The position numbers and the translations under genes were made by a program. From positions 22,514-86,513 of the forward strand of contig CAYLWL010000002.1 of the NCBI GenBank assembly GCA_964387675.1: 64,000 nucleotides of DNA, in the 5' to 3' direction. Shown here piece by piece: positions 3,784 to 54,901 of this stretch. The notes below the pieces were generated by a model, which was given only the letters and a program-made list of their open reading frames with translations, did no database searches and was not told the DNA's origin. The stretch's first letter is position 1; every line of letters begins with the position of its first letter. The DNA comes from an uncultured Candidatus Saccharibacteria bacterium. GTDB taxonomy: Bacteria; Patescibacteriota; Minisyncoccia; UBA6257; 2-01-FULL-56-20.

Positions 3784-4128
3784 ATGAGTAATACAAAATC
3801 TTTTAAAGATTTAATTGTATGGCAGAAAGCGCGGAGTTTGGCGGTTGCGGTATATAAACTTTCTGAACAATTTCCTAACGTAGAGCTATATGGCCTAACA
3901 AGTCAAATGCGTCGCGCGGCCATTTCCATTTCTTCCAACATCGCCGAAAGTTACCACCGTTTTCATAGAAAAGAAAAACAGCAGTTTCTTTCTATCGCTT
4001 TTGGCTCCGGCTCGGAACTAGAAAGCCAAATAGAAATCGCCAAAGTTTTATTTCCAAAGCTGGATTATCGAGAAAGTGAAGAATTATTGTTGGAGGTTAT
4101 GAAAATACTAAATAATTTTCTACAATGA
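3784..4128 (+). CDS. four-helix-bundle protein (23S rRNA intervening-sequence protein / DGR Avd-like family), copy 1
   Basis: 114 aa. WQKARSLAVAVYKLSEQFPNVELYGLTSQMRRAAISISSNIAESYHRF matches the S23-ribosomal/IVS four-helix-bundle family. Flanked by inverted TAGAA repeats. Confidence 0.8.
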   Translation: MSNTKSFKDLIVWQKARSLAVAVYKLSEQFPNVELYGLTSQMRRAAISISSNIAESYHRFHRKEKQQFLSIAFGSGSELESQIEIAKVLFPKLDYRESEELLLEVMKILNNFLQ

Positions 4129-5558
4129 TCAAAATCGAAAAATTAAAAATAGTTCTTCTACTTTCTATTTTCTATTTTCTACCTTCTCGTAAGCGGGGGC
4201 AGTCCACGATTGAGATTTTGATCGCGGTGACGATTCTGACCGCGGTTTTGACGAGCGCCGCCGCGCTCATTTTCGGCAGCCAATCGCTCTCGGTTGATTC
4301 CGCGGAAAGTAATCAGGCATTGCGTCTCGCCGAACAGGGCTTGGAGGGCGTCAAAAATCAGGCCAGATACGACTTCCTCAACATCGTTTCGAGCACCGTG
4401 ACGCAGGGTGAGTTCACGAAAAACATCATTGTCTCGAATGTAGGCGCGAACACGAAGCAAGTGGTAAGCCGCGTTACGTGGAGCACCGATCCGCAGAGAA
4501 CCCAGCAAGTCGAACTCGTGACGCTTGTGACGGATTGGCGCGGCGTGCAGGACACCGGCGGAGACACGGGGAGCGGCGGCGGTGGCGGCGGCGCTTCTGG
4601 CGACTGGTGCAATCCCGCAACCCTCGGCACGATCGATTTGGGATCGGGTGAGTCGGCGACGGGCATCGATGTGATCGCAACAACGACCTATATGACGGCA
4701 GTCGCTTCCTCCCCGAGCAAGAAGGACTTTTTCATCGTTGATGTTTCCAATTCCAGCACTCCTTCCATTATCGGGTCCATAGACACCGGGCCGGGACTCA
4801 ATGCTCTGGACGTGACGGCAAACTACGCTTATGTCGCGAGCGACGACAGCTCCAAGCAATTCCAAGCCATCGACGTCAGCAACAAGACCAGCCCGGTTCT
4901 CGTTGCATCCACCACTCTTACGAGCAATTCCGCCGTTGGACGGAGTATTTTTTACCATAATCAAAAAGTATATATCGGCACGGACGACAATAGTGGAAAC
5001 GAATTCCAGATTATCGACGTGGCCACTCCCGCAACCCCCGTGATTTTGGGAAGAGCTTCTTTGGATGAAGATGTGAATTCCATTTACGTGAGCGGGAACA
5101 AGGCATATCTTGCAACATCCGATACGTCGAAAGACGTGCAGATTTTCGATGTGTCGACTTCATCCGCGCCCGCGCTTCTTGGCACGTATGACATTTCGGG
5201 TGCCGGAGAAACGAAATGGCTGTATGTGGTTGGCACGAAAATGTATGTGGGCAGAGAAACCGGAGGAGATGAACTTTATGTATTGGATATTACGAATGCC
5301 ACTTCGGTGTCGGTGTTGGGCCATAAGGCGATCGGCAAAACGGTGAACGCGATTACAGTGCGCGGCAATTACGCGTTCCTTGCCACCTCCGACCCGAACA
5401 ACGAGCTCAAGATATTCGACGTTTCCAATCTTTCAAATATCACTTCCTGCAGTAACTTCAACTTTCCCAACATCGCGACCGCCGTCGATTTCGACGCCAA
5501 TCTGGTGTACACCGCCGTGCGATCGAACGACGGCCTGCGCATCGTGACATCGCAATAA
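4125..5558 (+). CDS. prepilin-like N-terminus fused to an LVIVD-repeat beta-propeller domain protein
   Basis: N-terminal KRGQSTIEILIAVTILTAVLTSAAALIFG is a pilin-type G/x-T-x-E plus TM. A Gly-rich linker (GGDTGSGGGGGGASGD) is followed by at least six repeats of the pattern xxIxDVSNxSxPxxxG (FIVDVSNSSTPSIIGS, QAIDVSNKTSPVLVAS, QIIDVATPATPVILGR, QIFDVSTSSAPALLGT, YVLDITNATSVSVLGH, KIFDVSNLSNITSCS). These are typical of LVIVD repeats. True start codon uncertain. Confidence 0.65.
   Translation: MIKIEKLKIVLLLSIFYFLPSRKRGQSTIEILIAVTILTAVLTSAAALIFGSQSLSVDSAESNQALRLAEQGLEGVKNQARYDFLNIVSSTVTQGEFTKNIIVSNVGANTKQVVSRVTWSTDPQRTQQVELVTLVTDWRGVQDTGGDTGSGGGGGGASGDWCNPATLGTIDLGSGESATGIDVIATTTYMTAVASSPSKKDFFIVDVSNSSTPSIIGSIDTGPGLNALDVTANYAYVASDDSSKQFQAIDVSNKTSPVLVASTTLTSNSAVGRSIFYHNQKVYIGTDDNSGNEFQIIDVATPATPVILGRASLDEDVNSIYVSGNKAYLATSDTSKDVQIFDVSTSSAPALLGTYDISGAGETKWLYVVGTKMYVGRETGGDELYVLDITNATSVSVLGHKAIGKTVNAITVRGNYAFLATSDPNNELKIFDVSNLSNITSCSNFNFPNIATAVDFDANLVYTAVRSNDGLRIVTSQ
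4147..4188. repeat. TAGAA-family hairpin arm (right arm); also encodes N-terminus of the following pilin-like ORF
   Basis: tagttcttctactttctattttctattttctaccttctcg is the reverse-complement partner of 3745-3783. It translates in frame as VLLLSIFYFLPSR preceding KRG|QSTIE. Confidence 0.7.
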
Positions 5559-5560
5559 AA

Positions 5561-5600
5561 TTAGAATTTAGTAGCTAGTATCTAGAAACTAGAATGCGAG
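5561..5600. repeat. TAGAA-family hairpin arm
   Basis: ttagaatttagtagctagtatctagaaactagaatgcgag. Partner at 5635-5668. Confidence 0.65.
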
Positions 5601-5624
5601 AAATAACCAACGCAAACGCAATTT

Positions 5625-6155
5625 ATGAATAAAATACTAGATTCTAGATTCCAGATTCTAGATTCTCGCAGAGGGTTTACCTTGATGGAGACCTTGATTT
5701 ACATCGCTCTTTTTTCCGTCATTACGAGCTATGTCCTTGGCGTGTTCTATCAACTCCTCGGCAGCCGCAACCAAAATCGCGACAGGACGGAAGTTGACGC
5801 GGAAGCGAACTTTCTCATGCAGAAACTGCGGTGGGCAATGAGCGGCGTCCAAACCGTCAACCAGCCGGCGACAGGCGCCACTTCGACGACGCTATCGGTC
5901 ACAAAGTACAATTTCGCGCAGAACCCGATCGTATTCGACCTTGATTCCAGTACCCTCCGAATGGCAAAGGGTGGGGGAGCGGCGGTAATTTTAAACAATA
6001 GCCGCGTGGGAGTGGGCCAGCTGACATTCGAGCGCCTGGCTCCGGTGAGTAACGCTCCGGAAGGAGTTACCATAACATTGTCGGTATCGTCCCTTGATGT
6101 TGAGCGGCCGGTCGTCGCTTCCACCACTATCGTGGACACCATTTATTTAAGGTAA
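5625..6155 (+). CDS. prepilin-type N-terminal cleavage/methylation domain protein (pseudopilin)
   Basis: MNKILDSRFQILDSRRG|FTLMETLIYIALFSVITSYVLG is a canonical class III signal peptide. Confidence 0.8.
   Translation: MNKILDSRFQILDSRRGFTLMETLIYIALFSVITSYVLGVFYQLLGSRNQNRDRTEVDAEANFLMQKLRWAMSGVQTVNQPATGATSTTLSVTKYNFAQNPIVFDLDSSTLRMAKGGGAAVILNNSRVGVGQLTFERLAPVSNAPEGVTITLSVSSLDVERPVVASTTIVDTIYLR
5635..5668. repeat. TAGAA-family hairpin arm that encodes the pilin leader peptide
   Basis: tactagattctagattccagattctagattctcg translates as ILDSRFQILDSR immediately before RG|FTLMETLI. Confidence 0.65.
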
Positions 6156-6207
6156 TAAGCTAGCTTTTAGGTGTTAGCTGTTAGGTTTTAGAAAACAAAT
6201 AAATAAA

Positions 6208-6648
6208 ATGAGAGAAAAGTTCTATCATATCGGCAACCTACTAAAAGCTATAAGCTATAAGCTAAAAGCCCGGGTTGGCTACATCGGCATCGTGTCGGCG
6301 CTTATCATATCGGCCGTTGTGGTTCTGATTATGGTCGCGGTGGGGCAGATTTCGTTCTTGAACCGCATCAACATTTCCGACACCCACTTAAAAAAGAAAA
6401 GCCGGGCGCTCGCGGAGGGGTGCGTCGACACAGCGCTCTTGAAGCTCGCGTCGAACGCTTCCTACGCCGGCAACGAAACCATCACTGTTGCGAGCGATAC
6501 ATGCAAAATCGTTTCCGTGGTTTCGTCGAGTACGGGAAAGATCATTTCTGCCCAGGGCAAGTTCCTCGGCGCGGTGACGGATGTCAAGGCGACCGTTGAC
6601 ACCAACACCTTCTCGATCGTGGGCTGGGAAGAGGTGAGGAGTTTTTGA
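6208..6648 (+). CDS. hypothetical membrane protein in pilus operon (possible minor pilin/PilX-like)
   Basis: 146 aa with one N-terminal TM helix (IGIVSALIISAVVVLIMVAVG). No recognisable motif. Confidence 0.4.
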   Translation: MREKFYHIGNLLKAISYKLKARVGYIGIVSALIISAVVVLIMVAVGQISFLNRINISDTHLKKKSRALAEGCVDTALLKLASNASYAGNETITVASDTCKIVSVVSSSTGKIISAQGKFLGAVTDVKATVDTNTFSIVGWEEVRSF

Positions 6649-6691
6649 TTAGAAAGTAGAATTTAGAAAATAGAAAGTAGAATCTGGAAAA
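6649..6691. repeat. TAGAA-family hairpin arm
   Basis: ttagaaagtagaatttagaaaatagaaagtagaatctggaaaa. Partner at 6710-6747. Confidence 0.65.
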
Positions 6692-6693
6692 CT

Positions 6694-7191
6694 ATGAAAA
6701 ATTTAAAAACAACTTCTATTTTCTATTTTCTAGATTCTAGATTCTCGAATAAGGGTTTCACTTTGATAGAGGTCGTCATATCGGTGGCAATCATTACGCT
6801 CCTTACGGTTGCTGCCATTGTTATTCTCGATCCCGCTCGGCAGTTTGCCAAATCGAGAAACACACAGCGCTGGTCGGATGTGAATGTGATTTTGAATGCG
6901 GTTGGGCAAAACACCGTTGACAACCGCGGAACTTTTTCGTGCAGTTCCGGCGGGATTCCCACGACTACGACGAGGATGGCGTCCAGCAGTCCGAACTACA
7001 ATATCGCGCCGTGCCTTGTAGCGACCTATTTAAGCGCCTTGCCGTTCGATCCGGCAACGAGCGGCGCGAAGTGGACGAGCGTAACCGATTACGACACCGC
7101 TTATAACATCCTGCGAAACGCCACAACCGGCCGCGTGACGATTTCCGCTCCGGCGGCCGAACTTGGGGAGAGCGTTACGGTCACGAGGTAG
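6694..7191 (+). CDS. prepilin-type N-terminal cleavage/methylation domain protein (pilin)
   Basis: MKNLKTTSIFYFLDSRFSNKG|FTLIEVVISVAIITLLTVAAIVIL. Confidence 0.8.
   Translation: MKNLKTTSIFYFLDSRFSNKGFTLIEVVISVAIITLLTVAAIVILDPARQFAKSRNTQRWSDVNVILNAVGQNTVDNRGTFSCSSGGIPTTTTRMASSSPNYNIAPCLVATYLSALPFDPATSGAKWTSVTDYDTAYNILRNATTGRVTISAPAAELGESVTVTR
6710..6747. repeat. TAGAA-family hairpin arm encoding pilin leader
   Basis: aacttctattttctattttctagattctagattctcg translates as TSIFYFLDSRFS before NKG|FTLIEV. Confidence 0.65.
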
Positions 7192-7195
7192 GGTC

Positions 7196-7356
7196 GGTGC
7201 GCTCCGCGCCGTCCTTTCGGAAACAGCATAATTTTCTTCCAGCGAGAAAATTTGCTTCGCTCTTGGTCCGCCAGGTCCGATTGTCCGATTACAATCGGAC
7301 CACCAAGCTGGCGGACCTCCGAGATGTTCCTCAAGAACGGCGCGGAGCGCACCATG
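7196..7356. repeat. nested inverted-repeat structured element between convergent genes (likely bidirectional terminator or structured RNA)
   Basis: Outer pair ggtgcgctccgcgccg (7196-7211) / cggcgcggagcgcacc (7341-7356). Inner pairs ggtccgccag/ctggcggacc and gtccgattgt..acaatcggac. Confidence 0.6.
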
Positions 7357-7411
7357 CCTATCGCTTACATGTGGATTGATTATTGAGGTCTAACAAAAAA
7401 TGAAATGTTTC

Positions 7412-9328
7412 TTAGACCGAGGCGTATTTGTCGCTCGGTGAGACCTCTATCGCGTCCCACTTATCTTTGAGCGCTGCCACCTTGCCGGGGTTTGCCAAAG
7501 TCACCGAGAGAAGGATTTTCGTAAGGTTGCTGTCTGTTCGCGTAAACTTTGAACTAAAATCATTTATTTCCTCGCTCAGGAGATGAGCAAGTTCGTGGAG
7601 ATAGGTTTTCGCTGCTTCTAAAAACGGCCCGGCAAGCAAACTTTGATTGATGAAAATATCGCTTCCGCCGATCGCCGTAAATCCGTGGAGTCCTATTTCT
7701 CCTTCTAGGCCCTTCAGTTTCAGAACTTTTCTGGCGGATACTTTCGGGGCGACTTCCTGAAGGCGGAGGATAAACTCCTCGGCTTCAAATACGCCCATGG
7801 CCTGTTCTAAAAGTTTTGGATCGATCGTTCGGCCGTCGAGGAGATGCCATATTTCTTCGAGCACTTTTATCCGCTCTTGTTCCGGAGCGTTTAATTCCAC
7901 GTTTTCTGCCGTATCGACAAGCCCCACTATTTTTTCCCGCGCGAGCGGCATACCAAGCTGGTTCAGTTCCGGTATACATATGGTAAACCCCGCACTCTTC
8001 AGAACCTCTTCATAGCCATTCAAGCGGCTCGAGTAAGCACCTGCCGCATCACGAGCAACGCACATTCCCCAGAATTTTTCAGGAATCCTTGGGGACGAGG
8101 AAGTTGCTCGCATTCCAAATAACAGCTTCTTTACGATTTTTTTGACGAGCAGTAAGGCCGGTTTTTTCGCTTCCTCATAAGGCACATCTTCCCAGTAATC
8201 TTTGAGTTTTTCTAATACATTCCTGGCTTGTTCGTCGGTCATTTCTTTAACAAGCGGCGCCAGCACGTTTTCATCAAATTCCCCGGCTTCGCAGTAACTT
8301 CGATCCCTTCGCTTTTGCAAGGCCTTTCTGTTTGTCCAGATAGTCATTCCTTCAACTTGGTGCGACCAGCCATCGTGCTTTCCGTATTCATATCTTTGTC
8401 CCGAGATATAAAGATTGCCCTTTCCTCCTTTCGGCAAAAGCTCAAATCCGCCGAAGTCAGATTCAAACGTGGGGTTTTGGAAATCTTCGTTCGTGGAGCT
8501 GTAAAAGAAATCTTTCATTAAAGAGAAGTCCTCATCAAGTTTCAAAATTTCCAACGCTTCATCCGGGAGATCATCTTCATACCAATGCCAAAAGGAAGAC
8601 GGAATCGCGAATTTTAAGTAGTTGCCGGGGAATGGTTCTCGCGTAAATTTCGCGCGGACGTGAAGTCCCTGAACTTTATCTGGATAATCTTCTTCTGGCA
8701 GAGAATCCAGATAATAAATCATTTTCCAGTGGCCTGAGCCGAGCTCCACGTTATCGGTTAACCTGTTTTGCAAAAGCAGGAAGGCGGCTATTTTTACCCC
8801 CTCGCCGAATTCACCGGCGGCTTCGGGGTCATCAAACTTTGTTGTTCCTCCATGATGGATCAAATAGCGGTGATCGTATTCTGCCGGAGAGGTGATTACA
8901 AACTCGCGATACTCCCTGCCGTCAATTTGCGCGGTTCTTTCTTCGGACTTAACACCGTCGAGTGTCGGTCTCCCGGCATAAGCCGCCATGCCGTCATAAA
9001 AGTTTTGAAAAATATCCCGGAGCAGTTTTGTGTTTGACCACCCGATCATCTGGGTCTCAAGAGGACCGATGTATCTGCCACCCTCCAGTGCCTTGAGAAG
9101 TGCCGCGATAACTTCGGGATTGGATTTTTTCCGGGTTACAATTCCATACTCTTTTGCCAGTTGGTATGCGGCGTCTATGTCTTCTTTGGAGTAATTGCTC
9201 GGCCACTTCGGGTCGTCCAAAAACTTTCTTACCCGCTCAATTTCTTCGAGCGCCTCGCTTTCGGTTAATGGCTCCTGGTATGGCCCCTCGTCAGGTATGG
9301 TGAAAGATTCTTTCCGTGGTTTAGGCAT
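7412..9328 (-). CDS. large hypothetical protein (638 aa) with C-terminal HExxH zinc-peptidase-like motif
   Basis: No Walker or other family motifs recognised. C-terminal TYLHELAHLLSEE is an HExxH motif as in SprT/ImmA-IrrE-type metallopeptidases. Acidic, Trp-rich central region. Confidence 0.6.
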   Translation of the reverse strand: MPKPRKESFTIPDEGPYQEPLTESEALEEIERVRKFLDDPKWPSNYSKEDIDAAYQLAKEYGIVTRKKSNPEVIAALLKALEGGRYIGPLETQMIGWSNTKLLRDIFQNFYDGMAAYAGRPTLDGVKSEERTAQIDGREYREFVITSPAEYDHRYLIHHGGTTKFDDPEAAGEFGEGVKIAAFLLLQNRLTDNVELGSGHWKMIYYLDSLPEEDYPDKVQGLHVRAKFTREPFPGNYLKFAIPSSFWHWYEDDLPDEALEILKLDEDFSLMKDFFYSSTNEDFQNPTFESDFGGFELLPKGGKGNLYISGQRYEYGKHDGWSHQVEGMTIWTNRKALQKRRDRSYCEAGEFDENVLAPLVKEMTDEQARNVLEKLKDYWEDVPYEEAKKPALLLVKKIVKKLLFGMRATSSSPRIPEKFWGMCVARDAAGAYSSRLNGYEEVLKSAGFTICIPELNQLGMPLAREKIVGLVDTAENVELNAPEQERIKVLEEIWHLLDGRTIDPKLLEQAMGVFEAEEFILRLQEVAPKVSARKVLKLKGLEGEIGLHGFTAIGGSDIFINQSLLAGPFLEAAKTYLHELAHLLSEEINDFSSKFTRTDSNLTKILLSVTLANPGKVAALKDKWDAIEVSPSDKYASV

Positions 9329-16402: not shown

Positions 16403-16467
16403 GAATCATTAAATTAAAATCATTTCCGTTATAACATAATATTATGTTATAACGGAAATGATTTTGT
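16403..16467. terminator. perfect long palindrome after mraY (putative terminator/regulatory hairpin)
   Basis: aatcatttccgttataacataat|attatgttataacggaaatgatt followed by ttgtgg. Confidence 0.55.
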
Positions 16468-18621: not shown

Positions 18622-18685
18622 TCCTGCCTGCCGGCAGGCAAGGCCTGTCTGCCGGCAGGCAGGCCTGCCTACCGGCAGACAGGGA
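18622..18685. repeat. GC-rich palindromic repeat (GCCTGCCGGCAGGCAGG units)
   Basis: cctgcctgccggcaggcaaggcctgtctgccggcaggcaggcctgcctaccggcagacaggg. Same family at 54726-54768. Confidence 0.75.
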
Positions 18686-36680: not shown

Positions 36681-37305
36681 TAATACAAACAGTTGGTAAT
36701 TCAGGCGATCGCTCTTGCGTGCGTAGCACGCAGAAAATGAGGTATGAGATATGAGAAATTAGGAACGACCTAATATCTCAAGGGAGAAGCCCGTTCTCAT
36801 TTCTTGTTTCTTGCGCGCTGCGCGCGCAGGGGAGGAAAGTCCGGACACCGGCGTGCGTGGCACGCAGCACGGGGCAAAGGGCAAATCGCAAAGGGCAGTC
36901 GGTTTAACCGAACTCTTTGCTCTTGGCTCTAAGCTATTTGCTGCGCGCTGCGCGCGCAAGCGTAGCGGCTAACAGCCGTCGTCCGCAAGGATAGAGGTGC
37001 GAGCAGAGACGCCGCGTGGCGAAAGCTTTACGCGGGGACCCAATCCTAAGCTCGTTGGTCTAGTCCTGCCATAGGGATAAAAAAGCAGGAGTGAAACGGC
37101 TAAATCCTTACAGGGTGTAAGGCCGTACTCCGATGTTACGCATCGGTTTGTGCCGCATTGAGCCAAAGAGTAATCGATGGCCCAGATAAATGATCGTCAG
37201 AGTGTTCCCGAATCCCGAATTACTTACGAATATACGAATTCGTATATTCGTGTAGATTCGTAATTAGCGAATACTCCACAGAATCCGGCTTACGAATTGC
37301 CAACG
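36681..37305 (+). ncRNA. rnpB: RNase P RNA (bacterial type), unusually long because of inserted repeat hairpins
   Basis: P4 5' strand GGAGGAAAGTCCGGAC at 36831-36846. P4 3' strand ACAGAATCCGGCTTA at 37278-37292. P1 pairing gttggtaattc (36681-36691) with gaattgccaac (37295-37305). Terminator immediately 3'. Confidence 0.75.
36733..36811. repeat. ATGAGA-family hairpin located inside rnpB at the P3 position
   Basis: gaaaatgaggtatgagatatgagaaattaggaacgacctaat...gttctcatttcttgtttc lies between the P1/P2 5' strands and the P4 5' strand. Confidence 0.65.
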
Positions 37306-37308
37306 AAT

Positions 37309-37345
37309 GAAAAATCCCTCCGACTGCGGTCGGAGGGATTTTCTT
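37309..37345. terminator. bidirectional rho-independent terminator (rnpB on +, mgtC on -)
   Basis: aaaaatccctccgac tgcg gtcggagggattttctt, with T/A runs on both sides. Confidence 0.75.
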
Positions 37346-39233: not shown

Positions 39234-40307
39234 ATGCAAGGAATTGATTTCCCTCTGTCAAAAACTAAACAAGAATCAGGCCGCAAGTTCAACTTAAACG
39301 ATCCTCGCGATCGGCAGAGGTATTTTTCGTCGAAAGTTGGAGCGGAGATCGAAAAGCTCAAAAAGTATCTTGCGAGCGGAAAAACGTTTGTCGGCTATCT
39401 TTTGGGTAAAAAGAATTCGGGGAAAGGGACGTATTCGAAACTTTTTATGGAAGCGTTAGGAACGGATCGCGTGGGCCACGTCGCGGTGGGGGATATTGTG
39501 CGCGACGTGCACTCCGGCCTTGCCGACCCCGCGACGAAAAAAGAACTCTCTGATTTTTTGAGCAAGAACTATCGGGGGTTCCACAGTTTGGAAGAAATTG
39601 AGCAGGTTATCGAAGGGCGGAGCCAGTCGACCCTAGTCCCCACGGAGCTTATCCTTGCTCTCTTAAAGTTTGAAATCAGCAAACGCCCCCGACAAGCGCT
39701 TTTTATCGACGGCTTTCCTCGCGGCCTCGATCAGATCGGTTATTCGCTCTATTTGAAAGAGCTTTTGGGATACCGCGATGACCCGGACTTTTTCGTTTTT
39801 ATCAGTTTGCCGAATACCGTCCTCGACGAGAGGATCAAGTACCGCGTGATCTGCCCGATCTGCAAAACTCCGAGGAGCACCAAGCTGTTGGCGACGAGCG
39901 GAGCCGGCTACGACGAGGCGGCAAGAAAGTTCTATCTGATATGCGATAATCCGCCCTGCAACAAAGCGCGTATGGTTCCCAAAGAAGGAGACGAGCTGGG
40001 GATCGAGCCCATCCGCGCCCGGCTTGAAACCGACGACCAGATTTTCCGAAAGTTGCTCGAGCTCCAAGGCGTGCCGAAGGTGTATCTCCGCAACGCGGTG
40101 CCCTCCGCCGAAGCAAAAGAATACGTGGATGATTACGAACTTACTCCGGCGTACGGCTACGAGCTTGACCAAGCAACGAAGAACGTAAAGATTCTCGAGT
40201 CCCCGTGGGTCGTTGAGGATGACGACGGCATCCCGTCATACAGTTTATTACCGCCGGCGGTTGTGGTGTCGTTAATCCGGCAAGTAGTCCACGTGCTCAA
40301 ACTTTAG
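39234..40307 (+). CDS. divergent adenylate-kinase-family protein with N- and C-terminal extensions
   Basis: GYLLGKKNSGKGTYSKLF (P-loop like Adk GxPGxGKGT), FIDGFPRGLDQ (Adk NMP-binding motif), zinc LID ICPICKT...CDNPPC. 357 aa versus about 215 for canonical Adk. Confidence 0.55.
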   Translation: MQGIDFPLSKTKQESGRKFNLNDPRDRQRYFSSKVGAEIEKLKKYLASGKTFVGYLLGKKNSGKGTYSKLFMEALGTDRVGHVAVGDIVRDVHSGLADPATKKELSDFLSKNYRGFHSLEEIEQVIEGRSQSTLVPTELILALLKFEISKRPRQALFIDGFPRGLDQIGYSLYLKELLGYRDDPDFFVFISLPNTVLDERIKYRVICPICKTPRSTKLLATSGAGYDEAARKFYLICDNPPCNKARMVPKEGDELGIEPIRARLETDDQIFRKLLELQGVPKVYLRNAVPSAEAKEYVDDYELTPAYGYELDQATKNVKILESPWVVEDDDGIPSYSLLPPAVVVSLIRQVVHVLKL

Positions 40308-40315
40308 TTTTTATT

Positions 40316-40897
40316 ATGGCCGATCTTGACCCGCGTTTACATTTCGTAGTGCCGACCGCGATCGTCGTGAAAAACGGGAAATTTTTGATCGCCAAACGTG
40401 CCGCCCACGAAAAGGCGTTTCCGGATAAATGGACGGTGCCCGGAGGCAAGCTGGTGCTCCATGAATATGAGCACCTGCCACGGGGTTTTCGTGGTCGTCA
40501 TGATGACGACCACGGCGAAGGAGGGGTCGGGAGGAAAGTACAAGGTTCCTCCCGTGTAGGAGATTATTCAGAACTGAGGGTTCTGAAGGAGGAGCGAAGC
40601 GACGACCCGCAATGGTACAACGTCGTGGAGTGGGTGCTTCGAAAAGAAGTTCGCGAAGAAGTCGATTTGGAGATCGAGAAGCCGCGGTATCTTTGCGATC
40701 TGGTTTTCGTGCGGCCGGACGGCTATCCGGTGGTAACACTCTCGTACTGGGCTTTCTACAAAAGCGGAGAAGTGAAACTTTGCAAGGACTTGACCGATTA
40801 CGCCTGGGTGACGGTTGAAGAGGCGAAGCAATACGATCTCATCGACGGCATCTGGGACGAAATCAAAGAAGTGGCAGATATCGTAAAAAAAGTATAA
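40316..40897 (+). CDS. NUDIX hydrolase with about 50-aa insertion inside the Nudix box
   Basis: WTVPGGKLV...[insert]...LRKEVREEVDL. The Nudix box GGx5E...REVxEE is split by a palindrome-rich insert at 40470-40625. Confidence 0.65.
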   Translation: MADLDPRLHFVVPTAIVVKNGKFLIAKRAAHEKAFPDKWTVPGGKLVLHEYEHLPRGFRGRHDDDHGEGGVGRKVQGSSRVGDYSELRVLKEERSDDPQWYNVVEWVLRKEVREEVDLEIEKPRYLCDLVFVRPDGYPVVTLSYWAFYKSGEVKLCKDLTDYAWVTVEEAKQYDLIDGIWDEIKEVADIVKKV

Positions 40898-54725: not shown

Positions 54726-54768
54726 CAGTGGCAGACCTGCCTGCCGGCAGGCAGGTCTGCCTGCCGGC
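54726..54768. repeat. GC-rich palindromic repeat (same family as 18622-18685)
   Basis: cctgcctgccggcaggcaggtctgcctgccggcaggcagggcg. Confidence 0.75.
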
Positions 54769-54828
54769 AGGCAGGGCGCTTGTTGACCCCGCACCTTCGG
54801 AGGCGTATTATTTTAGGAATCGATGCAA

Positions 54829-54901
54829 GCGCGTGTAGCTCAGTGGTTAGAGCGCGTCGTTGACATCGACGAGGCCCGTGGTCCGATTCCACGCACGCGC
54901 A
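54829..54901 (+). tRNA. tRNA-Val (anticodon GAC)
   Basis: GCGCGTG TA GCTC AGTGGTTA GAGC G CGTCG TTGACAT CGACG AGGCC CGTGG TCCGATT CCACG CACGCGC A. All stems Watson-Crick. Confidence 0.85.

What the first reader, a model, noticed from the sequence alone, without database searches (positions are those of the whole stretch)
40470..40625. Palindrome-rich in-frame insertion splitting the Nudix box of a NUDIX hydrolase
The Nudix motif is interrupted between PGGKLV and LRKEVREEVDL by about 150 nt. This insert contains a perfect palindrome (tcgtggtcgtcatgatgacgaccacg) and hairpins (gggaggaaagtacaaggttcctccc; cagaactgagggttctg). It translates in frame to a charged His/Asp/Gly-rich loop (HEYEHLPRGFRGRHDDDHGEGGVGRKVQ...). 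The catalytic motif has therefore tolerated invasion by a repeat element like those seen in topA and rnpB.
Basis: seen in the sequence. Interest (0 to 1): 0.6.

Follow-up and report, generated by a model that had tools for sequence, protein, structure and literature searches.

The report
Structured mobile element translated inside NUDIX
A small enzyme gene of an uncultured groundwater bacterium carries, in frame and inside its catalytic motif, a copy of a folded DNA/RNA element; other copies of that element sit in non-coding DNA next to tRNA genes, and in the gene it is the element's nucleotide sequence, not its peptide, that is conserved.

Summary
The NUDIX ORF (40316-40897, +) holds a perfect 12+1+12 palindrome and two further hairpins, all in frame.

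About 16 of the roughly 52 extra residues in the Nudix box are shared by the whole protein family. The clade-specific insert is 36 residues net (40484-40606).

That insert is a copy of a structured element of about 110-170 nt that matches no Rfam family. I found 23 further distinct copies, all in Candidate Phyla Radiation (CPR) bacteria and all non-coding. Most lie directly 3' of tRNA or tmRNA genes, with a duplicated copy of the gene's 3' end.

All four NUDIX orthologues that carry the insert keep it stop-free. The UAA in its most conserved loop has become CAA or GAA. None of the 23 non-coding copies is stop-free in that frame.

Third codon positions are 94% identical in the element core but 43% in the NUDIX flanks. 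Hairpins covary. The middle segment of each NUDIX copy is closest to a non-NUDIX copy.

AlphaFold models a confident Nudix fold with the insert disordered.

The link to topA and rnpB, and the metal-binding loop, are not supported. How the element moves and what it does remain unknown.

The parts
40316..40897 (+). NUDIX hydrolase ORF (193 aa), the host gene
   Evidence: ORF list. Pfam NUDIX 31.6 bits against a cutoff of 21.1. 100% identical to a Candidatus Liptonbacteria MAG protein, with 1,425 homologues. AlphaFold mean pLDDT 83.8. Foldseek best hits are NudI 6dt3 and other Nudix structures.
40466..40642 (+). Expanded segment of the Nudix box, between E50 (of GX5E) and K110-E111 (the equivalent of 'RE'). 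It is 59 residues here, 23 in typical family members and 7 in the canonical motif.
   Evidence: Alignments A1 and A3. Alignment to NudI shows the family-wide insertion.
40484..40606 (+). Clade-specific insert, G57-D97 (41 residues in place of 5; net +108 nt)
   Evidence: Codon-level comparison with insert-free orthologue L034 and with L001, L002, L004 and L032. Residues 61-91 have pLDDT below 50.
40494..40620 (+). Stretch homologous to the CPR element family, and its only copy in the window
   Evidence: nhmmer with the profile of 23 copies gives E = 1.9e-28. No other window hit falls below E = 0.8.
40490..40514 (+). Hairpin 1: the host codons R59-G60-R61-H62 (CGTGGTCGTCAT) followed by their reverse complement. 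It sits where the free copies carry their 5' arm.
   Evidence: All four orthologues have different but complementary arms of 10-12 bp. In free copies the 5' arm is an exact reverse complement of upstream host sequence.
40515..40527 (+). Conserved junction GCGAAGGAGGGGT, Shine-Dalgarno-like (AAGGAGG)
   Evidence: Invariant or nearly invariant columns in A2.
40528..40554 (+). Hairpin 2: invariant 9-bp arms CGGGAGGAA/TTCCTCCCG around the loop AGTACAAGG. C40541 replaces the T that makes a TAA stop in 22 of the 23 non-coding copies.
   Evidence: (23 of 23 aligned sequences identical at all 9 pairs).
40567..40587 (+). Hairpin 3: covarying stem with the conserved loop CYGAGGG
   Evidence: RNAalifold finds 5 pairs with changes on both sides across 23 copies.
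40588..40608 (+). 3' tail GGAGGAGCGAAGCGACGACCC. CGACCC (40603-40608) pairs with GGGTCG (40524-40529) to close a three-way junction.
   Evidence: MFE and centroid structures. Third-position identity in the tail is 0.80.

Best explanation
The insert is a translated, in-frame copy of a low-copy structured nucleic-acid element of CPR bacteria that spreads horizontally.

**The element.** It has a closing stem, an invariant hairpin, one or two variable hairpins and a covarying hairpin, joined by conserved purine-rich junctions. Its other copies are non-coding. They sit at the 3' ends of tRNA, tmRNA and a few protein genes. Each is flanked by a duplicated copy of the gene's 3' end and starts with an inverted copy of upstream host sequence.

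**The insertion.** In one small clade related to Candidatus Liptonbacteria the element entered a surface loop that already splits the Nudix box in this protein family. The insertion was survivable for three reasons. The loop is permissive, the catalytic residues (E50, K110-E111, E114-E115) are untouched, and the element's one stop codon in this frame was mutated (TAA to CAA or GAA).

**The peptide and the sequence.** The peptide is a disordered passenger. The nucleotide sequence and the helices are what is kept. This would follow from selection on recognition of the nucleic acid, from gene conversion with free copies, or from both.

**Shown:** homology to the element family; open frame; nucleotide-level conservation; covariation; tRNA/tmRNA context; predicted disorder.

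**Inferred:** that the element is mobile or integrative; that the peptide has no function; that conversion occurs.
For: 1. **Homology.** The core GGTCGGGAGGAAAGTA[T/C/G]AAGGTTCCTCCCGTGT occurs in 11 genome loci and 16 metagenome loci. Every locus that carries an organism title is CPR. nhmmer E-values run from 1e-20 to 1e-38.
2. **Not a known RNA family.** Rfam gathering and E-value scans of the window and of free copies find nothing. No paper in the library contains the core sequence.
3. **Structure.**
   - Hairpin 3 has 5 covarying pairs.
   - The variable hairpin has nine or more unrelated sequences at one position, and the closing stem and hairpin 4 are built from unrelated sequences.
   - Fold z-scores are -4.4 and -5.9.
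4. **Context.** Copies lie directly 3' of tRNA-Gln, Arg, Tyr, Leu, Ala and Glu genes and of tmRNA genes on the same strand. The gene's 3' end is repeated after the element, and L018 has two tandem 151-nt units. The 5' arm is an exact 8-17-nt reverse complement of upstream host sequence, against a random mean of 5.1 nt.
5. **Translated.** 4 of 4 NUDIX copies are stop-free despite lengths of 41-63 codons, against 0 of 23 other copies (Fisher p = 5.7e-5). The NUDIX flanks evolve like a working gene: 78% amino-acid identity with 43% third-position identity.
6. **Nucleotide-level constraint.** Third-position identity is 0.94 in the core and 0.80 in the tail, against 0.43 in the flanks. The identical-codon fraction is 0.94 against 0.43.
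7. **Exchange with free copies.** The middle segment of the window copy is 97% identical to L018. L002 is closest to L031 (85%) and L001 to L026 (80%). None is closest to another NUDIX copy.
8. **Tolerance.** Confident Nudix fold; insert residues 61-91 have pLDDT below 50.
9. **A permissive loop.** A different 22-nt inverted repeat sits at the same site in P0042, and a short insert that includes an inverted copy of adjacent codons sits there in P0006. Neither is homologous to the element.
Against: - No recombinase, transposase or reverse transcriptase is consistently nearby. There is only one large serine recombinase, 2 kb away in L012, and DGR cassettes in L008 and L026.
- No empty tRNA site or excised form was seen, so mobility is inferred.
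- Copy number is 1-2 per genome, unlike classical MITEs.
- No 3' target duplication is evident at the NUDIX site.
- Translation is inferred from the sequence alone. No proteomic or RNA data were available.
- Only four distinct NUDIX orthologues carry the insert, so the covariation in hairpin 1 rests on few sequences.
- Strong nucleotide conservation could also mean that the RNA has a function for the host (rival 1).
Confidence: 0.6

Rival explanations
1. The element is kept in the NUDIX mRNA because its RNA fold works for the host in cis. For example, it could pause or gate translation, or set mRNA processing or stability. It has three Shine-Dalgarno-like GGAGG tracts, one of them sequestered by a CCUCC strand. 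Alternatively it could be released as a small RNA, making this a dual-function gene.
For: - Nucleotide-level conservation inside a coding region.
- Conserved helices and junctions.
- The sense strand folds better in 22 of 25 copies, with more G-U pairs (101 against 36).
- All tRNA-linked copies are on the same strand as the tRNA.
Against: - Insert-free orthologues are the great majority, so the host gene does not need the element.
- Free copies have no consistent downstream gene.
- The G-U bias is confounded by the G-rich strand. Within hairpin 3, G-U and A-C mispairs are equal.
- Hairpin 2 shows no covariation at all. That fits sequence-specific recognition as well as it fits RNA structure.
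Confidence: 0.2
2. The insert is an adaptive protein loop, for example a His/Asp/Gly-rich site for binding metal or substrate at the Nudix active site, and the palindromes are incidental.
For: - It lies inside the Nudix box near the metal-binding glutamates.
- An H-x-D-like pattern recurs (RHDDDH, RHHDDY, SHHNDYY, RHSHSDY).
- The frame is maintained.
Against: - The His/Asp part is the least conserved at protein level (59%) and shows ordinary third-position divergence (0.46).
- The best conserved part is conserved at the nucleotide level, synonymous sites included (0.94).
- The same sequence is non-coding and stop-containing in 23 other copies.
- pLDDT is below 50 for residues 61-91.
- No related peptide exists in any other protein among 1.84 billion representatives.
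Confidence: 0.07
3. The insert is an intervening sequence that never reaches the mature protein, such as a small self-splicing or self-cleaving RNA, a translational bypass, or an intein-like segment.
For: - It is a compact multi-helix RNA-like fold with conserved junctions.
- CPR bacteria are rich in group I introns (PMC13011429).
- Its first helix pairs the upstream 'exon' with the start of the element, which loosely recalls an internal guide sequence.
Against: - No match to any Rfam intron or ribozyme model, even at E = 10.
- At 108-170 nt it is far below the size of group I or II introns, and 36-58 aa is far below intein size.
- Removal of the stop codon and preservation of the frame in 4 of 4 copies of different length would be unnecessary if it were excised.
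- There is no take-off/landing codon pair with an adjacent stop, as translational bypass requires.
Confidence: 0.05
4. The palindromes are chance features or an assembly artefact in one MAG.
For: The window comes from a metagenome-assembled genome.
Against: - The same insert occurs at the same codon in five contigs from four independent sources: two NCBI MAGs, two Logan runs and one ENA assembly.
- Shuffles never reproduce the palindromes.
Confidence: 0.01

Closest known systems
Rickettsia palindromic elements (RPEs), and intragenic MITEs generally (ERIC, BOX, Correia)
   Same: - A palindromic element of about 100-150 bp inserted in frame in a housekeeping gene.
- It is translated as an extra peptide at a site compatible with the protein fold (PMC10969869).
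   Different: - RPEs are multi-copy: 44 insertions in R. conorii, nearly half of them in many unrelated ORFs. Here there are 1-2 copies per genome and a single protein host.
- This element has no conserved terminal inverted repeats and no short target duplications; its arms are copied from the host.
- It has a multi-helix junction architecture with covariation.
- It has a marked preference for the 3' ends of tRNA and tmRNA genes.
Integrative elements that target the 3' ends of tRNA or tmRNA genes (phage and island att sites in the T-loop region; established knowledge, recalled and not read here)
   Same: - Sits immediately 3' of an intact tRNA or tmRNA gene.
- A displaced, diverged copy of the gene's 3' end (from the T-loop to the acceptor) follows the element.
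- Tandem units each regenerate the target.
   Different: - It is only about 150-220 bp and has no integrase.
- It carries an inverted copy of the target as well as the direct one.
- It also occurs at the 3' ends of protein genes and once inside a coding region.
REP/REPIN and other short palindromic repeats
   Same: Hairpin-forming, with host-dependent spread. The same genomes also carry a REP-like palindrome, CCTGCCTGCCGGCAGGCAGG, which has even been inserted into one element copy.
   Different: The element is a complex fold of four or five helices with a 33-nt invariant core. It is not a single hairpin, and no RAYT-type transposase association was seen.
Orphan structured non-coding RNA classes found by comparative genomics
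   Same: Conserved junction nucleotides, helices that vary in sequence but hold their position, an optional peripheral hairpin, and a closing stem.
   Different: - Not in Rfam 15.
- It shows duplication signatures of a mobile element.
- One lineage is embedded in, and translated with, a protein gene.

Membership tests
NUDIX hydrolase superfamily (host protein) | Nudix alpha/beta/alpha fold | tested here: met
   AlphaFold mean pLDDT 83.8, with 124 residues at 90 or above. Foldseek against the PDB gives 469 matches at E <= 0.001, best NudI 6dt3 (E = 3e-10, target TM 0.74). Pfam PF00293 scores 31.6 bits against a cutoff of 21.1.
NUDIX hydrolase superfamily (host protein) | Nudix box GX5EX7REUXEEXGU with canonical spacing | tested here: not met
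   - G44-X5-E50 and K110-E111-V-R-E114-E115-V-D117-L118 are present.
- E50 and K110 are 59 residues apart instead of 7; the family norm is 23.
- R is replaced by K, and G by D in the window protein.
- The catalytic glutamates are conserved, so the protein still belongs to the superfamily by fold.
RPE-like or MITE in-frame insertion | Palindromic element of about 100-150 bp read in frame within a functional gene | tested here: met
RPE-like or MITE in-frame insertion | Many copies per genome, inserted in several unrelated genes | tested here: not met
   One copy in the 64-kb window. At most two contigs per genome in the species collection. Six-frame peptide searches find no other protein host.
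RPE-like or MITE in-frame insertion | Conserved terminal inverted repeats and short target-site duplications | tested here: not met
   The arms differ between copies and match the local host sequence. The duplications are 15-70+ nt of the host gene's 3' end.
Integrative element that targets tRNA or tmRNA genes | Located at the 3' end of a tRNA or tmRNA gene, with a direct repeat of that 3' end on the far side | tested here: met
   At least 13 of 23 non-NUDIX copies are directly 3' of an ARAGORN-called tRNA or tmRNA. Repeats are listed. This feature is not met for the NUDIX copy itself.
Integrative element that targets tRNA or tmRNA genes | Encodes, or is adjacent to, its integrase | tested here: not met
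   The unit is about 150-220 bp with no ORF. Neighbouring ORFs are unrelated housekeeping genes. The exceptions are one serine recombinase 2 kb away (L012) and DGR cassettes (L008, L026).
Known RNA families, including group I/II introns and small ribozymes (Rfam 15) | Match to a covariance model | tested here: not met
   No hit at gathering score. The best sub-threshold hits are chance-level small-RNA models, E = 0.1-6.
Site-specific recombinase core site (dif, lox or att type) | Two invariant inverted binding arms around a short asymmetric AT-rich spacer that is cut by a recombinase | not testable with these tools
   Hairpin 2 has this shape: 9-bp invariant arms, the spacer AGTATAAGG, and no covariation in 27 copies. 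That is a resemblance only; no recombinase partner or crossover point is known.

The most novel reading that the evidence does not exclude
The element is a previously undescribed kind of miniature integrative element, or structured RNA, of CPR bacteria.
- It homes to the 3' ends of tRNA, tmRNA and other genes.
- It rebuilds the target's 3' end.
- It carries a host-templated inverted arm.
- It is recognised through an invariant 25-nt hairpin.

The NUDIX copy would be a still-exchanging member that has been captured as coding sequence. One stretch of nucleic acid would then be under selection both as a folded element and as part of an enzyme's catalytic-motif loop.
Probability: 0.35. Interest if true: 0.8.

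Novelty: new variant of a known kind. Interest (0 to 1): 0.66.

Why it matters
- **How enzymes gain loops.** It gives a clean natural example outside Rickettsia of a selfish or structured nucleic-acid element becoming part of an enzyme. The insertion lies inside the signature catalytic motif, and the nucleic-acid layer, not the peptide, is what is conserved.
- **A new sequence family.** It also uncovers an unannotated, highly conserved structured element in CPR bacteria. That element is linked to the 3' ends of tRNA and tmRNA genes and has unusual host-templated arms.
- **Why the element is worth pursuing.** Its mobility mechanism or RNA function is unknown, and CPR genomes have very little spare DNA.
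- **Practical consequence.** Annotators should expect in-frame, hairpin-rich inserts in CPR genes, and should not read them as functional protein loops or as frameshift errors.

Tried and rejected
- **Same repeat in topA or rnpB.** BLASTN and TBLASTN of the insert against the window, and nhmmer with the family profile, find no second copy. rnpB and the topA region carry other hairpins.
- **Known RNA family.** Six Rfam scans found none.
- **Phage origin.** No hits in the viral contig collection.
- **Other proteins that carry the translated element.**
  - A concatenated six-frame peptide query returned only the NUDIX protein and two spurious short ORFs lying over non-coding copies.
  - A second word-index search with the 45-aa insert peptide returned no candidates, which wasted that search.
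  - The exhaustive HMMER scan of 1.84 billion representatives gave one unrelated repetitive protein.
- **tmRNA, permuted tRNA or split tRNA for the tRNA-like arms.** ARAGORN calls none over the element. The 5' arm is a true reverse complement of the tRNA's 3' strand, not the tRNA's own 5' half.
- **Retroviral-type primer-binding site.** The arm covers the T-loop to mid-acceptor, not the 3' terminus.
- **Association with diversity-generating retroelements (DGRs).** Seen in only 2 loci and in opposite orientations, so I treated it as neighbourhood coincidence.
- **Strand assignment from G-U pairs.** Suggestive of the + strand but confounded by base composition, and not supported within hairpin 3.
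- **Literature.** No paper contains the core sequence. [quoted passage not shown]

Full report
**1. The observation**

The ORF 40316-40897 (+, 193 aa) is a NUDIX protein. Pfam PF00293 scores 31.6 bits against a cutoff of 21.1. It is 100% identical to a hypothetical protein of a Candidatus Liptonbacteria MAG, a member of the Candidate Phyla Radiation (CPR).

- 40490-40514: 12-nt arms around one central base, 100% complementary.
- 40528-40554: 9-bp stem with a 9-nt loop.
- 40567-40587: 8-bp stem with a 5-nt loop.

Neither palindrome pattern occurs in 100 shuffles of the window. Region 40484-40612 folds far better than shuffles, with z = -4.4 on the + strand and -5.9 on the - strand.

**2. How much of the interruption is an insert**

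An alignment of 22 homologues, and later one of 77, shows that the whole family carries an expansion inside the Nudix box. The consensus is GGKLVLHEYxHLPKTSPTHPQWYNVVDWVLRKEVREEVGL.
- That puts 23 residues between the Glu of GX5E and the 'RE' position, where the canonical motif has 7.
- A sequence alignment to NudI (6dt3) confirms the gap.
- The window protein has 59 residues there.

The extra 36 residues (41 in place of TSPTH; G57-D97; 40484-40606) are shared only with its three closest relatives:
- P0003, from a second Liptonbacteria MAG.
- P0002, from two Logan runs.
- P0004, from an ENA assembly.

These come from independent assemblies, so the insert is not an artefact.

AlphaFold with the 77-sequence alignment gives a confident Nudix fold (mean pLDDT 83.8). 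Residues 61-91 are below 50. Foldseek finds NudI, NudC, RppH and MutT structures. The conserved E50, K110-E111 and E114-E115 are intact.

**3. The insert is conserved as nucleic acid**

I compared the four orthologues codon by codon.

| Region | Amino-acid identity | Third-position identity | Identical-codon fraction (where the amino acid is the same) |
|---|---|---|---|
| NUDIX flanks | 78% | 43% | 0.43 |
| Hairpin 1 region (residues 57-65) | 59% | 46% | not computed |
| Core (residues 66-82) | 92% | 94% | 0.94 |
| 3' tail (residues 88-97) | 85% | 80% | 0.80 |

Hairpin 1 differs in all four orthologues yet stays complementary:
- CGTGGTCGTCAT / ATGACGACCACG
- CGTAATCGTC / GACGATTACG
- CGTAGTAGTCAT / ATGACTACTACG
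- CCGCCATAGTCA / TGACTATGGCGG

**4. It is one member of an element family**

- An exact-pattern scan for the core found 11 loci in the species-genome collection. All are CPR: Saccharibacteria, Colwellbacteria, Liptonbacteria and Patescibacteria.
- A looser pattern that left the stem of hairpin 2 free found 16 metagenome loci.
- The viral collection gave none.

After removing duplicates there are 27 distinct copies, four of them in NUDIX.

The shared architecture is:
- a closing stem, P1;
- the junction CGAAGGAGGGGUC;
- GUGUAGGA;
- an optional hairpin with at least nine unrelated sequences;
- hairpin 3, with the loop CCGAGGG and five pairs showing changes on both sides;
- GGAGCGA;
- an optional hairpin 4 that also covaries (GCGAGUUGC/GCGACUCGC, AAUGAUUUGC/GCGAAUCAUU, GCAAUCUGC/GCGGGUUGC);
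- GCGACG and the 3' strand of P1.

No Rfam 15 family matches, at gathering score or at E <= 10, either in the window or in free copies. The core sequence is in no paper of the library.

**5. Context of the free copies**

At least 13 of the 23 non-NUDIX copies lie directly 3' of an intact tRNA gene (Gln, Arg, Tyr, Leu, Ala, Glu) or a tmRNA gene, on the same strand. Three more follow tRNA-3'-like fragments. Others sit at the 3' end of a GAPDH-like ORF (L021), at the 3' end of a membrane-protein ORF (L005), or between two copies of a host repeat that are about 75% alike (L024).

Two regularities stand out:
- **A diverged direct copy of the upstream gene's 3' end follows the element.** For tRNAs this runs from the T-loop into the acceptor strand. 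In L018 two tandem units of 151 nt each regenerate the 3' end of tRNA-Gln.
- **The 5' arm is an exact reverse complement of upstream host sequence.** Matches are 8-17 nt against a random mean of 5.1 nt and a random maximum of 9 nt. The arm tracks T-loop variants: TTCAATT, TTTAAAT and TTCGAGT.

In the NUDIX copies, hairpin 1 is this same feature with a loop of 1-5 nt. The host codons for R-G-R-H are followed by their reverse complement.

This pattern resembles integration into the 3' ends of tRNA and tmRNA genes with restoration of the gene. That comparison rests on established knowledge of att sites in tRNA genes, recalled and not read here. However, the unit is only about 150-220 bp and has no integrase. 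Neighbouring genes are unrelated. The exceptions are a large serine recombinase 2 kb away in L012 and DGR cassettes (bAvd, reverse transcriptase, a pilin-like FGE-domain target) beside the element in L008 and L026. Mobility is therefore inferred, not shown.

**6. The NUDIX copies are read through**

- In the NUDIX frame the consensus loop of hairpin 2 contains TAA.
- All four NUDIX copies have CAA or GAA there and are stop-free over 41-63 codons.
- All 23 other copies have at least one stop (Fisher p = 5.7e-5).
- One non-coding copy (L031) also has CAA, so the change is not unique to NUDIX.

Searches with all six reading frames of the element, and an exhaustive HMMER scan of 1.84 billion representative proteins with the insert peptide, found no other genuine protein host.

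**7. Single insertion with later exchange**

The NUDIX copies share derived junctions at both ends:
- GGCGAAGG at the 5' junction instead of ACCGAAGG.
- AGGAGGAGCGAAGCGACGACCC at the 3' end.
- The loop change.

These argue for one ancestral insertion.

Their middle segments, however, belong to three different subtypes. Each is closest to a non-NUDIX copy from another organism: window to L018 at 97%, L002 to L031 at 85% (and equal to L021 over the part available), and L001 to L026 at 80%. Gene conversion from free copies, or replacement by re-insertion, is the simplest reading. Together with the third-position conservation, this says the copy is not an inert relic.

**8. The loop is a hot spot**

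- P0042 carries a different in-frame insert at the same place, with a 22-nt inverted repeat (91% complementary, 22-nt spacer).
- P0006 has a short extra DTTGD whose codons are largely an inverted copy of the adjacent QWYN codons.
- The insert-free orthologue L034 has no inverted repeat.
- Neither the P0042 nor the P0006 insert is homologous to the element.

**9.

The idea that a repeat-type element invaded and was tolerated is supported.

The comparison with topA and rnpB is not. The element profile finds one copy in the window. rnpB (36872-37308) gives a weak RNase P class A hit of 34 bits, below the gathering score. It and the topA region hold unrelated hairpins.

The His/Asp richness comes from reading a palindrome in this frame. 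That part is the least conserved at protein level.

**10. Mechanism and open points**

I commit to the following.
- The insert is a tolerated, translated copy of a structured and probably integrative element.
- The peptide is a disordered passenger.
- The nucleotide sequence is held by recognition of the folded nucleic acid, by conversion with free copies, or by both.

Whether the active form is RNA or single-stranded or duplex DNA is unresolved.
- The sense strand folds better in 22 of 25 copies and has more G-U pairs.
- That strand is G-rich, however, and hairpin 2 shows no covariation.
- Hairpin 2 has the shape of a recombinase core site. This is a resemblance only.

The perfect host-derived inverted arm could arise at insertion. 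It could also be kept perfect by quasi-palindrome template switching. Neither could be tested here.

Noticed in passing
window 18623-18663 and 54730-54775; also L005 7341-7360, L016 7578-7597, L030 5028-5047: A second palindromic repeat, CCTGCCTGCCGGCAGGCAGG, recurs in the window. One site lies in the doubtful N-terminal extension of a class II aminoacyl-tRNA synthetase ORF. The other lies just upstream of the tRNA at 54829. It also occurs in distant CPR loci, and in L016 it forms the optional hairpin inside a copy of the element, a palindrome nested in the element.
   Followed up: partly
window 36872-37308 (+): The RNase P RNA (class A) scores only 34 bits, below the gathering score of 100. 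It carries a perfect 26-nt palindrome, ACGAATATACGAATTCGTATATTCGT, at 37226-37251 and a terminator-like hairpin at 37311-37342. It is not related to the NUDIX element.
   Followed up: partly
window 16416-16465: A perfect 50-nt palindrome, AAAATCATTTCCGTTATAACATAATATTATGTTATAACGGAAATGATTTT, is the longest in the window.
   Followed up: no
L033 393-458 (P0042) and L032 350-387 (P0006): Other NUDIX orthologues carry different inserts at exactly the same loop. P0042 has a 22-nt inverted repeat with a 22-nt spacer. P0006 has a 5-residue insert that includes an inverted copy of the adjacent QWYN codons. Neither is homologous to the element.
   Followed up: yes
L018 (reverse strand), two units about 151 nt apart, next to tRNA-Gln 352-423: Two tandem copies of the element, each ending in a regenerated copy of the tRNA-Gln 3' end.
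   Followed up: partly
L023 537-855 and L027 1382-1730: Two copies of the element lie immediately 3' of a tmRNA gene (tag peptide ANSNRVTAPAFAYA), not of a tRNA.
   Followed up: partly
L008 about 3955-6815 and L026 about 4117-8234 (coordinates with the element on the + strand): Diversity-generating retroelement cassettes lie beside the element, in opposite orientations in the two loci. They comprise bAvd, a reverse transcriptase, and a pilin-like target with an FGE-sulfatase domain that ends in VGFRCAR.
   Followed up: partly
L012 1-857 (- strand): A large serine recombinase (Resolvase plus Recombinase domains) lies 2 kb upstream of the element copy in a Liptonbacteria MAG. It is the only recombinase seen near any copy.
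   Followed up: no
window 39234-40307 (+); L001 2401-2997; L034 913-1497: The gene upstream of NUDIX is a 357-aa adenylate-kinase-like protein in the window. In two orthologous loci it is a nucleoside diphosphate kinase. A peptide-chain release factor gene lies downstream, converging on NUDIX, in the window, L001, L002 and L032.
   Followed up: no
P0005 (336 aa) and P0010 (309 aa): Two homologues are fusions of two NUDIX domains. The C-terminal domain of P0005 has its own version of the family-type expanded Nudix box, GGKISTDDYTNLPKDTPDYWYNVLERTLKREVEQEAG.
   Followed up: no
element copies generally, e.g. window 40594-40600, L018 spacer, L013 and L026: The heptamer GCGAAGC recurs in the tails, spacers and optional hairpins of the element. 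From my own recollection, d(GCGAAGC) is known as an unusually stable DNA mini-hairpin. If so, it would hint at a single-stranded DNA stage.
   Followed up: no
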